Origin: Escherichia coli
Lineage (GTDB): Bacteria > Pseudomonadota > Gammaproteobacteria > Enterobacterales > Enterobacteriaceae
Length of the DNA stretch: 64,000 bases
NCBI RefSeq assembly: GCF_003334335.1
Contig: NZ_QOWQ01000028.1
Reading direction: 5' to 3' (one strand)
In this document: piece after piece, positions 15,001 to 18,000 of the stretch
Layout of the letters: each line of letters opens with the position of its first letter
Numbering within the stretch: position 1 is the first letter of the stretch
Program-made: the position numbers

Positions 15001-18000
15001 TCAGCATGTGGCGATGCTCGGCTTTATGTTGACCCTGGCGGCAGCATTTAGTTGGGCGTGTGGCAACATCTTCAATAAAAAGATCATGTCGCACTCAACG
15101 CGTCCGGCGGTGATGTCGCTGGTAATCTGGAGCGCTTTAATCCCAATCATTCCCTTCTTTGTTGCCTCGCTGATTCTCGATGGTTCCGCAACCATGATTC
15201 ACAGTCTGGTTACTATCGATATGACCACCATCTTGTCTCTGATGTATCTGGCGTTTGTGGCGACAATTGTTGGTTATGGGATCTGGGGGACGTTACTGGG
15301 ACGCTATGAAACCTGGCGGGTTGCACCGTTATCGTTACTGGTGCCCGTAGTAGGACTGGCAAGTGCGGCACTATTGTTGGATGAACGCTTAACGGGTCTG
15401 CAATTTTTAGGTGCGGTGCTCATTATGACCGGGCTGTATATCAATGTATTTGGCTTGCGGTGGCGTAAAGCGGTAAAGGTGGGAAGTTAATAAGCCCCGA
15501 GATGTCGGGGCCAGAACAAACTACATAGCGTGTTGATTATAATAGGGCACGCCGAGCGCATCCGACTTATCACTGCCAGTACCCATGTGATTTAAATCAA
15601 ACGGTGGGTGTTCCTGCGATGGGGGAACAACCACGACATTGGCACAAGAAGTAACAACTGGCTGCGTGGTTTGTTCCGCAACGCCCTGCGCGGAAAAGAG
15701 AATAAGCGCAGCTGCTATTGCGGATGAAAGTGGTTTCATGATTGCCTCAGTGACGTTGTCACGTTTTCAACTAGCTGTTGTAATGATTTAATGGATGTAA
15801 AAAGCGCGATTCGCCCTGCATATTGGTCATCCGGTATTTATGCGGCGGAACATCAAAGTAATTTTTGAAGGTTCGGGTCAGAGTTTGTTGCGACTCGAAG
15901 CCATATCGTTCTGCCAGATAGAGTATCGGCTCGTTACTTTCCTTCAGCTTTTGCGCGATTTCCGTCATCTTACGGCTGCGGATGTATTGGCCTAATGAAT
16001 GACCGGTTTCTTTTTTAAACATCCGTTGCAGGTGCCATTTGGAGTAACCCGAACGCTCTGACACTTTCTCCAGTGACAGTGGCGATTCCAGGTTGTCCTC
16101 GATCCAGTCCAAAATGCTATGAATGGTAATAGCGTCAGTATTGCGTCTGGACATCGTCATACCTCTTTTTTGTTTACGGCAGGACTTTCTTAAGCAAATA
16201 CTCAAGTGTTGCCACTTCGTCCGCCGTCAGGTTTTTTGTTAATTCTTGGTGCAGGTCCTGGCCAACTAATTGATGGCATTGTTCACATATTGCCGCGCCG
16301 CCGGTGGTAAGTTTTACCAGTACGCCGCGCTTGTCATTCGGGTTCGGCAACCTTTCCACCCAGCCTTTACAGACCAGGCGATCCAGCATACGGGTCAGTG
16401 CTCCCAGGTCGACCGACAATACCTTTTTCAGTTCAACCGGAGTAATACACGCCGCGCAGCGGATAGAGCAGAGCACCTTAAACTGTGCCGCGGTAATATC
16501 CAGCGGAGACAGATACTCGTTAAGCAGGCGATCTTTCTTCTGATTAACCATATGGATTAAGCGACCCAATGGAATAATTTCATTGAACAGATCGCTGGTA
16601 CTTTTCACATTAGTTGCCCTGGCAAGTAATTAGTTGCAGGGGATAATATTGCCCAGGCAAGTATAAGTCAAATGAATGAATTGACCGATGCCACGTTTTG
16701 CTAAATCGGTTCAAGTTTTGTTCAATGCGATGCAAGGCTAGCTAAAGAGTGACACTTTATCCTTGTTTACCCCTTATACTTTTCGCTGATAACCCAGATA
16801 CACAGGATAACAACCACCAATGTTAGATTTGTTTAAAGCAATTGGCCTGGGGCTGGTGGTGTTGCTGCCGTTAGCTAACCCATTAACAACTGTCGCGTTA
16901 TTTCTTGGCCTGGCAGGCAACATGAACAGTGCCGAACGTAATCGTCAGTCGTTGATGGCCTCGGTGTACGTATTTGCCATCATGATGGTGGCGTATTACG
17001 CCGGGCAACTGGTGATGGATACATTTGGCATTTCGATTCCCGGTCTGCGAATTGCAGGCGGCTTAATCGTCGCGTTTATCGGTTTTCGGATGCTCTTTCC
17101 GCAACAGAAAGCGATTGATTCACCGGAGGCGAAAAGCAAGTCGGAAGAGCTGGAAGATGAACCCAGTGCCAATATTGCCTTTGTGCCGCTGGCAATGCCA
17201 AGTACTGCCGGTCCGGGAACCATAGCGATGATTATTAGCTCGGCGTCCACAGTGCGTCAGAGTTCAACCTTCGCTGATTGGGTACTGATGGTTGCGCCGC
17301 CGCTGATCTTTTTCCTGGTGGCGGTTATTTTGTGGGGAAGCCTACGCAGCTCCGGCGCAATTATGCGGCTGGTGGGCAAGGGTGGCATTGAAGCGATCTC
17401 CCGTCTGATGGGATTCCTGCTGGTATGTATGGGTGTGCAGTTTATTATTAACGGCATCCTGGAAATCATTAAAACGTACCATTAAAAAAGGCCCGAATGG
17501 GCCTTTCAACTATTGCGTCTGTTCTTCGAGTGTCACTGGCCAGCGGCGAAATATAATGATTGACCAAATTAACGCGGCAAAAGCAGGCACCGCGCCCACA
17601 TAACCAATCATCGACATTGACCAGTGCAAACTCACCTGATTACCTACCAACGCACCCGCCCCGATTCCAATATTAAATATGCCGGAGAATAGCGCCATCG
17701 CGACGTCGGTAGCATCTGGTGCCAGCGCCAGCACTTTAACCTGCATACCAAGCCCGATGATCATCATCGCGATCCCCCAGAAAATACTCAGCACCCCGAG
17801 GTGTATTTCACTGTTCGCCGCAGGTAACAGCAATGCCAGGCACACCAGCAACAGCGCAATCGCCGTACTCACCAACGCAGACGCATACTGATTACCCAGT
17901 TTACCGAAAATCACGCTGCCAATAATGCCCGCACCACCGAGTAATAACAGTAATGCCGTGGCAAAGTTGGCGCTGAATCCCGCAATGTTTTGTACAAAAG

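What the first reader, a model, noticed from the sequence alone, without database searches (positions are those of the whole stretch)
16609..16819. marO operator palindromes readable directly upstream of marR
Two TTGCC-N2-GGCAA palindromes at 16614-16625 and 16649-16660 match the two MarR binding sites of marO, in the divergent marRAB/marC control region. Known biology, reported as a sequence-visible regulatory landmark.
Basis: partly seen in the sequence, partly recalled or inferred. Interest (0 to 1): 0.2.

Follow-up and report, generated by a model that had tools for sequence, protein, structure and literature searches.

The report
E. coli marO operator: MarR sites
The two short palindromes are real and are the well-known binding sites of the MarR repressor in front of the E. 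coli multiple-antibiotic-resistance operon marRAB, so this is an accurate but ordinary landmark.

Summary
TTGCCCTGGCAA (16614-16625) and TTGCCCAGGCAA (16649-16660) are the only two matches to TTGCC-N2-GGCAA in the 64 kb window. Both lie in the 211-bp gap between marR (16174-16608, minus strand) and marC (16820-17485, plus strand).

The stretch is 100% identical to E. coli K-12 MG1655. On the marR strand, site I fills the 17-bp spacer of a strong sigma-70 promoter match (TTGACT-17-TATTAT). Site II ends 5 nt before the GTG start codon of marR. A marbox (16688-16707) lies upstream of the -35 hexamer. This layout matches published descriptions of marO.

I fetched 49 marR loci from at least 15 enterobacterial genera using a marR coding pattern, so the choice did not depend on the operator. 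The ten half-site bases of each palindrome are almost invariant (majority base 0.99). The two central bases (0.76) and the unassigned intergenic columns (0.61) drift.

The mechanism is that MarR dimers block RNA polymerase at site I and add repression at site II, while MarA, SoxS or Rob activate from the marbox. This is already known biology. Interest is low.

The parts
16609..16819 (.). marO: the marR-marC intergenic control region (211 bp)
   Evidence: It is bounded by the marR GTG at 16608 (minus strand) and the marC ATG at 16820 (plus strand). The surrounding 601-nt stretch 16400-17000 is 100% identical to E. coli K-12 MG1655.
16649..16660 (-). MarR site I core palindrome (TTGCCTGGGCAA on the marR strand)
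   Evidence: It lies inside the 17-bp spacer between the -35 and -10 hexamers. It is a perfect palindrome at the same position in 41 of 49 orthologous loci. A published EMSA probe covering 16633-16732 holds 'one MarR-binding site' (PMC8614764).
16614..16625 (-). MarR site II core palindrome (TTGCCAGGGCAA on the marR strand). It spans the Shine-Dalgarno-like AGGG and ends 5 nt before the GTG.
   Evidence: It is perfect in 47 of 49 orthologous loci, at -17 or -16 from the start codon. The literature places site II at the putative ribosome-binding site, near the translation start (PMC6589471, PMC3920692).
16666..16671 (-). -35 hexamer TTGACT of the marRAB promoter
   Evidence: Promoter scan, 10 of 12 matches with a 17-nt spacer. 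Five of the six columns are invariant across 49 distinct sequences.
16643..16648 (-). -10 hexamer TATTAT of the marRAB promoter, directly abutting site I
   Evidence: Five of the six columns are invariant.
16688..16707 (+). Marbox, the binding site of MarA, SoxS and Rob. It reads ATGCCACGTTTTGCTAAATC on the plus strand, so it is in backward orientation relative to marRAB transcription.
   Evidence: It has one mismatch to the consensus AYnGCACnnWnnRYYAAAYn over the 19 bases searched, 16688-16706 (consensus as printed in PMC2064960 and PMC3709825). It is conserved across genera, with mean majority base 0.87 and 9 invariant columns. The literature places a marbox in marO upstream of the MarR sites (PMC3920692, PMC11633057).
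16174..16608 (-). marR, the repressor gene (GTG start, 144 aa)
   Evidence: NCBIfam NF008565 equivalog, 319 bits against a cut-off of 240. RefSeq annotation. Strong full-length matches to PDB MarR chains, best E-value 8.7e-94.
15771..16154 (-). marA, the activator gene (127 aa as annotated)
   Evidence: NF008564 and NF012198 equivalogs. RefSeq annotation mapped from L001.
15521..15739 (-). marB
   Evidence: NF007508 equivalog. RefSeq annotation.
16820..17485 (+). marC, the divergent neighbour (NAAT family transporter)
   Evidence: NF008228 equivalog. RefSeq annotation.

Best explanation
This is marO, the operator-promoter of the E. coli marRAB operon.

Each TTGCC-N2-GGCAA palindrome is the core of one binding site for a MarR homodimer. 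One winged-helix domain contacts each 5-bp half-site. The 2-bp centre is not read.

Site I (16649-16660) fills the spacer between the -35 hexamer (TTGACT, 16671-16666) and the -10 hexamer (TATTAT, 16648-16643). Bound MarR therefore keeps RNA polymerase off the promoter.

Site II (16614-16625) lies in the transcribed leader, over the Shine-Dalgarno-like AGGG, and ends 5 nt before the marR GTG. A second dimer there adds repression.

When MarR is inactivated by salicylate and other phenolics, by copper oxidation, or by mutation, the promoter opens. MarA, SoxS or Rob bound to the upstream marbox (16688-16707) then boost transcription, which gives the positive-feedback arm.

Shown here: the sequence, the positions, identity to K-12, and conservation.

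Taken from the literature: physical binding of MarR and its effect on transcription.

Inferred here: the half-site and centre reading pattern, and independent (unphased) binding at the two sites.
For: - The palindromes are exact and unique in the window. They form a 15-nt direct repeat.
- A 10-of-12 sigma-70 promoter match on the marR strand has site I exactly in its spacer.
- The genes are marR, marA, marB and marC. The 601-nt stretch is 100% identical to K-12 MG1655.
- The 64-bp core 16609-16672 is at least 99% identical in 5138 of 5409 matching E. coli records. For the surrounding 601 nt the figure is only 1484 of 5419.
- A phylogenetic footprint on 49 loci from at least 15 genera, retrieved through a marR coding pattern and so independently of the operator. 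Half-site columns have mean majority base 0.987, with 15 of 20 invariant. Central dinucleotides score 0.76 and unassigned intergenic columns 0.61.
- Site II is perfect in 47 of 49 loci and site I in 41 of 49. Their positions are fixed at -17/-16 and -52 to -54 from the start codon.
- Three loci with no marC within 2 kb upstream still keep both palindromes. The sites therefore travel with marR.
- Literature: two palindromic MarR sites in marO (PMC11633057); a dimer at each of two similar sites, 21 bp protected per site (PMC2724296); site I between -35 and -10, site II near the translation start, marbox upstream (PMC3920692, PMC6589471).
- Literature mapped onto the window: the EMSA probe 16633-16732 holds one site and the fragment 16609-16712 holds two (PMC8614764).
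- A DNA-bound MarR crystal structure exists (5H3R; PMC8242030).
Against: Nothing found contradicts it. Four limits apply.

- No tool here measures binding.
- The footprint papers (Martin and Rosner 1995; Seoane and Levy 1995) and the DNA chain of 5H3R could not be read. Base-level footprint limits therefore rest on secondary sources and on my memory.
- Site I is degenerate in some lineages: all five Buttiauxella loci, Cedecea colo and Salmonella diarizonae. The two-site design is therefore not equally strict everywhere.
- The 49 loci were selected for one conserved MarR peptide, so they sample only close orthologues.
Confidence: 0.97

Rival explanations
1. The palindromes are chance occurrences with no function of their own.
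For: The motif is short, with 10 specified bases. Three of 100 shuffles of the window reach two matches somewhere.
Against: Both copies fall in one 211-bp regulatory gap, with a chance of about 1e-7. They occupy fixed positions relative to the promoter and the start codon. They are nearly invariant across at least 15 genera while neighbouring bases drift.
Confidence: 0.005
2. Site II acts at the RNA level. The transcribed palindrome would form a leader hairpin that hides the ribosome-binding site, rather than serving as a protein-binding DNA site.
For: Site II lies downstream of the -10 hexamer and covers the AGGG upstream of the GTG. The predicted fold contains a small hairpin over it.
Against: The hairpin is weak: the centroid structure is -3.8 kcal/mol. 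The leader folds no better than shuffled sequence (z = +1.41; 186 of 200 shuffles fold at least as well). A 5-bp stem with a 2-nt loop cannot form as drawn. The same palindrome recurs at site I, upstream of the -10 hexamer and so ahead of where transcription should start. Conservation falls on the half-sites, not on compensating pairs.
Confidence: 0.02
3. The palindromes mainly serve another regulator or the divergent marC promoter. Candidates are AcrR, which is reported to bind marO, or a MarR paralogue.
For: AcrR is reported to bind marO (PMC7355843). A plus-strand promoter-like match, CTGGCA-17-GATAAT at 16619-16647, overlaps both sites.
Against: Superficieibacter loci and a Pluralibacter MAG locus with no marC nearby keep both palindromes. 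The positions are locked to the marR promoter and start codon, not to marC: the marC to marR gap varies from 176 to 306 nt. Published EMSA assigns these sites to MarR (PMC8614764). Extra regulators may also bind here without displacing MarR as the main one.
Confidence: 0.02

Closest known systems
marO, the operator-promoter of E. coli K-12 marRAB (MarR sites I and II plus the marbox)
   Same: The sequence is identical across the 601-nt stretch 16400-17000, which contains all of marO. It has the same flanking genes, the same positions of the sites relative to the -35 and -10 hexamers, the start codon and the marbox, and the same sequences as published primers and probes.
   Different: Nothing. 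The window simply shows the locus on the opposite strand.
Operators of other MarR-family repressors, such as OhrR at ohrA and ST1710 at its own promoter
   Same: A (pseudo)palindromic site is bound by a winged-helix homodimer and overlaps core promoter elements, so that RNA polymerase is excluded (PMC2724296).
   Different: They have different half-site sequences and usually one site per promoter. marO has two direct-repeat copies 35-37 bp apart, the second of which lies over the ribosome-binding site.
The orthologous marRAB control region of Salmonella, Citrobacter, Raoultella, Cedecea, Buttiauxella and others
   Same: It has the same ordered blocks: marbox, -35, site I, -10, site II, then a GTG or TTG start.
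   Different: The central dinucleotides, the spacers and the region upstream of the marbox diverge. The spacing between sites is 35, 36 or 37 bp. Site I is weakened in some lineages.

Membership tests
E. coli marO (MarR sites I and II) | Lies directly upstream of marR, the first gene of marRAB | tested here: met
   marR, marA and marB match NCBIfam equivalogs above their cut-offs. RefSeq annotation of an identical K-12 stretch agrees.
E. coli marO (MarR sites I and II) | Two similar palindromic sites | tested here: met
   There are two exact TTGCC-N2-GGCAA palindromes and a 15-nt direct repeat with 14 of 15 bases identical. The literature says 'two specific palindromic sequences' (PMC11633057) and 'two different, but similar, sites' (PMC2724296).
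E. coli marO (MarR sites I and II) | Site I lies between the -35 and -10 hexamers of the marRAB promoter | tested here: met
   The palindrome at 16649-16660 sits inside the spacer of TTGACT (16671-16666) and TATTAT (16648-16643). Position as stated in PMC3920692 and PMC6589471.
E. coli marO (MarR sites I and II) | Site II lies at the ribosome-binding site, just before the marR start codon | tested here: met
   The palindrome at 16614-16625 ends 5 nt before the GTG at 16608 and contains AGGG. Position as stated in PMC3920692 and PMC6589471.
E. coli marO (MarR sites I and II) | A marbox for MarA, SoxS and Rob lies upstream of the -35 hexamer | tested here: met
   One mismatch to the consensus over the 19 bases searched, 16688-16706; the full 20-bp marbox is 16688-16707. 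It is conserved across genera. On its own the motif match is at chance level (2 found, 1.49 expected). Position and conservation carry the weight.
E. coli marO (MarR sites I and II) | Sequence identity to experimentally used marO DNA | tested here: met
   Primers and probes from PMC8614764 and PMC10799119 map exactly. The fragment described as holding one site includes only the palindrome at 16649-16660. The fragment described as holding two sites includes both.
E. coli marO (MarR sites I and II) | Physical protection by MarR of about 21 bp centred on each palindrome, and agreement with the duplex in the MarR-DNA co-crystal 5H3R | not testable with these tools
   The PDB tool holds protein chains only. 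The primary footprint papers are not held. From my memory of Martin and Rosner 1995, site I abuts the -35 hexamer and includes 4 bp of the -10 hexamer, and site II ends just before marR. Both limits fit windows of about 21-22 bp centred on the palindromes (roughly 16644-16665 and 16609-16630).
Functional transcription-factor site (general test) | Purifying selection on the contact bases compared with the surrounding non-coding DNA | tested here: met
   Majority-base fraction is 0.987 for half-sites, 0.76 for central bases and 0.61 for other intergenic columns, in 49 distinct sequences chosen through the marR coding sequence.

The most novel reading that the evidence does not exclude
The comparative data add small points that I did not find in the papers I could read.

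- The spacing between the two sites floats between 35, 36 and 37 bp across genera. This argues against helical phasing or cooperativity between the two dimers.
- The second central base of site II is an invariant G (AG, TG or GG), and the start codon is always GTG or TTG. This suggests that site II is under double constraint, as MarR operator and as a deliberately weak ribosome-binding site, throughout the Enterobacteriaceae.
- Site II is more strictly kept than site I (47 of 49 against 41 of 49 perfect), although site I is regarded as the main repression site.
Probability: 0.4. Interest if true: 0.15.

Novelty: already known. Interest (0 to 1): 0.06.

Why it matters
marO is the switch of the mar regulon. 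Mutations in marR or in these sites de-repress MarA, raise AcrAB-TolC efflux and lower OmpF, giving low-level multidrug resistance. As a landmark it fixes the identity and orientation of the window (an E. coli K-12-like mar locus). It is also a clean positive control for reading operators from raw sequence. It does not open a new question.

Tried and rejected
- **Primary papers.** I tried to read the footprint paper (PMC41713, PMID 7777530) and the Grkovic review (PMC134658). Neither is held.
- **Co-crystal DNA.** The DNA of 5H3R cannot be retrieved, because the PDB tool covers protein chains only.
- **RNA hairpin.** I tested a hairpin role for site II. The leader folds no better than shuffles, so I rejected this.
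- **Marbox statistics.** The marbox consensus is too degenerate to be significant by count. I relied on position and conservation instead.
- **Choice of comparative scan.** I considered fetching orthologues by scanning genomes for the double palindrome. I rejected that as circular and scanned with a degenerate pattern for the MarR peptide ERLPNPNDKRGV instead.
- **PMC11672702.** It listed 'marO' hits in the search, but the held part of the text has none.

Full report
**Observation**

The plus strand reads ...ttagTTGCCCTGGCAAgtaattagttgcaggggataataTTGCCCAGGCAAgtataagtcaa.... A pattern search for TTGCCNNGGCAA finds exactly two matches in the 64 kb window, at 16614-16625 and 16649-16660. Dinucleotide-preserving shuffles give 0.15 expected matches, and 3 of 100 shuffles reach two anywhere.

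From that rate, the chance that two matches fall in one named 211-bp gap is about 1e-7. The repeat finder extends the pair to a 15-nt direct repeat, TTGCCC(T/A)GGCAAGTA, 35 bp apart.

**Context**

ORF listing and NCBIfam give these genes:

| Gene | Coordinates | Strand | Evidence |
|---|---|---|---|
| marR | 16174-16608 | minus | GTG start; NF008565 equivalog, 319 bits against cut-off 240 |
| marA | 15771-16154 | minus | NF008564 and NF012198 equivalogs |
| marB | 15521-15739 | minus | NF007508 equivalog |
| marC | 16820-17485 | plus | NF008228 equivalog |

The stretch 16400-17000 is 100% identical to many E. coli chromosomes, including K-12 MG1655. RefSeq annotates the neighbourhood there as ydeE, eamA, marB, marA, marR, marC, ydeA, yneK. 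The finding's span 16609-16819 is therefore the divergent marR-marC gap, which is marO.

**Anatomy on the marR strand**

...GATTTAGCAAAACGTGGCAT cggtcaattcattcat TTGACT tatac TTGCCTGGGCAA TATTAT cccctgcaactaattac TTGCCAGGGCAA ctaat GTG.

- The promoter scan finds TTGACT (16671-16666), a 17-nt spacer and TATTAT (16648-16643). This is 10 of 12 matches on the minus strand.
- Site I (16660-16649) lies wholly within that spacer and abuts the -10 hexamer.
- Site II (16625-16614) lies downstream of the -10 hexamer, contains the Shine-Dalgarno-like AGGG, and ends 5 nt before the GTG.
- A marbox, ATGCCACGTTTTGCTAAATC on the plus strand at 16688-16707, has one mismatch to AYnGCACnnWnnRYYAAAYn over the 19 bases searched. 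The consensus is as printed in PMC2064960 and PMC3709825. By count alone this match is at chance level (2 found, 1.49 expected).

**Literature**

[quoted passage not shown] - Site I lies at the -35 and -10 elements and site II at the putative ribosome-binding site (PMC6589471).
- Fis binds within marO upstream of the marbox, and AcrR can also bind marO (PMC7355843).
[quoted passage not shown] Mapping the primers gives 16609-16712 for the fragment, which holds both palindromes. It gives 16633-16732 for the probe, which holds only the palindrome at 16649-16660. This is the closest thing to a base-level experimental check available here, and it agrees.
- A DNA-bound MarR crystal structure exists (5H3R), but its DNA sequence is not readable with these tools.
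- From my memory of Martin and Rosner 1995, site I abuts the -35 hexamer and includes 4 bp of the -10 hexamer, and site II ends just before marR. Windows of about 21-22 bp centred on each palindrome reproduce both limits.

**Comparative test**

To avoid circularity I fetched orthologues through the coding sequence, not the operator. A degenerate pattern for the MarR peptide ERLPNPNDKRGV matches once in the window. It matches 50 stretches in the genome collection.

All 50 encode MarR orthologues. They come from Escherichia, Salmonella, Citrobacter, Raoultella, Pluralibacter, Cedecea, Buttiauxella, Siccibacter, Franconibacter, Atlantibacter, Trabulsiella, Yokenella, Superficieibacter, Dryocola and others.

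In the 49 loci with enough upstream DNA:

| Feature | Result |
|---|---|
| Site II perfect palindrome | 47 of 49, at -17 or -16 from the start codon |
| Site I perfect palindrome | 41 of 49, at -52 to -54 |
| Start-to-start spacing | 35 bp (16 loci), 36 bp (28), 37 bp (5) |
| Site I central dinucleotide | nine variants |
| Site II central dinucleotide | AG, TG or GG |

In the alignment of 49 distinct sequences, the mean majority-base fraction per feature is as follows:

| Feature | Majority-base fraction |
|---|---|
| Half-site columns | 0.987 (15 of 20 invariant) |
| -35 hexamer | 0.976 |
| -10 hexamer | 0.956 |
| Marbox | 0.869 |
| Central dinucleotides | 0.76 |
| All other columns | 0.61 |
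| Upstream of the marbox | 0.42 |

This is a textbook phylogenetic footprint. It supports reading of the 5-bp half-sites and not of the centre.

In most loci marC is divergent, 176-306 nt upstream. L002, L017 and L037 have no marC within 2 kb or more and still keep both palindromes. The sites therefore belong to marR.

Within E. coli, the 64-bp core 16609-16672 is at least 99% identical in 5138 of 5409 matching records. For the surrounding 601 nt the figure is 1484 of 5419.

**Mechanism**

A MarR dimer at site I occupies the promoter spacer and excludes RNA polymerase. A second dimer at site II, in the early transcribed region over the ribosome-binding site, adds repression.

Inducers or marR and marO mutations release MarR. 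MarA, SoxS or Rob at the marbox then activate transcription.

The sequence layout and its conservation are shown here. Binding and regulatory effects are taken from the literature. Unphased, independent binding is my inference from the 35-37 bp variation in spacing.

**Rivals**

- Chance is excluded by position and conservation.
- An RNA hairpin role for site II is not supported. The leader (16635-16570, minus strand) has a minimum free energy of -5.3 kcal/mol against a shuffle mean of -8.9 (z = +1.41), and the local hairpin is weak.
- A primary role for another regulator or for marC is unlikely, because the sites are locked to marR and persist without marC.

**Verdict**

This is already known biology and of low interest, though it is a clean landmark. 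It shows that the window is an E. coli K-12-like mar locus read on the reverse strand.

Noticed in passing
window 16692-16706 and 16712-16726: A 15-nt direct repeat (80% identical) pairs part of the marbox with a marbox-like copy 20 bp further upstream. The second copy lies in the part of marO that is not conserved outside Escherichia. The literature places a Fis site there (PMC7355843).
   Followed up: partly
window 16619-16647 (+): A plus-strand promoter-like match, CTGGCA-17-GATAAT (9 of 12), points toward marC and overlaps both MarR sites. It could be a marC promoter under the same operators, or it could be chance: the scan found 2 matches against 0.9 expected.
   Followed up: no
window 16609-16628 (-): A 20-bp insertion, TACTTGCCAGGGCAACTAAT, reported at the marR start in chloramphenicol-resistant E. 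coli mutants (PMC8757474) is an exact copy of this stretch. It is therefore a tandem duplication of site II.
   Followed up: partly
window 37352-37370 (-): This is the only other marbox-consensus match (one mismatch) in the window. It lies in the gap between ORFs 35519-37111 and 37642-41550. It is at chance level (ORFs).
   Followed up: no
window 12780-12993 (+) and 1187-1385 (+): Rfam gathering-level matches to the Hfq-binding sRNA STnc560 (281 bits) and to IS009 (221 bits).
   Followed up: no
L028 (Yokenella regensburgei ATCC 49455), about 9017-9100: marR appears frameshifted. An A-run is one base shorter than expected, which gives an in-frame stop after about 22 codons. Both operator palindromes are intact. 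This is either a pseudogene or a homopolymer sequencing error.
   Followed up: partly
L004 (labelled Caldithrix MAG) and L031 (labelled Chryseobacterium sp. 18061): Both contigs carry an enterobacterial marC-marRA locus. In L004, MarC and MarA are 100% identical to the window. This probably reflects contamination or mislabelling in the public records.
   Followed up: partly
L019, L021, L024, L027, L035 (Buttiauxella); L020 (Cedecea colo); L041 (Salmonella diarizonae); L034 (Escherichia sp. MOD1-EC7003): Site I is degenerate in these lineages. All five Buttiauxella loci share GGCAA changed to AGCAA. L020 has 3 mismatches and L041 has 2. L034 has TTTCC, and its MarR also carries R16H. Site II stays perfect in all of them.
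   Followed up: partly
E. coli genome collection: Five of the matching places for the marO/marR stretch are on plasmids rather than chromosomes. Nine of the 5426 genomes show no match to the 601-nt query.
   Followed up: no
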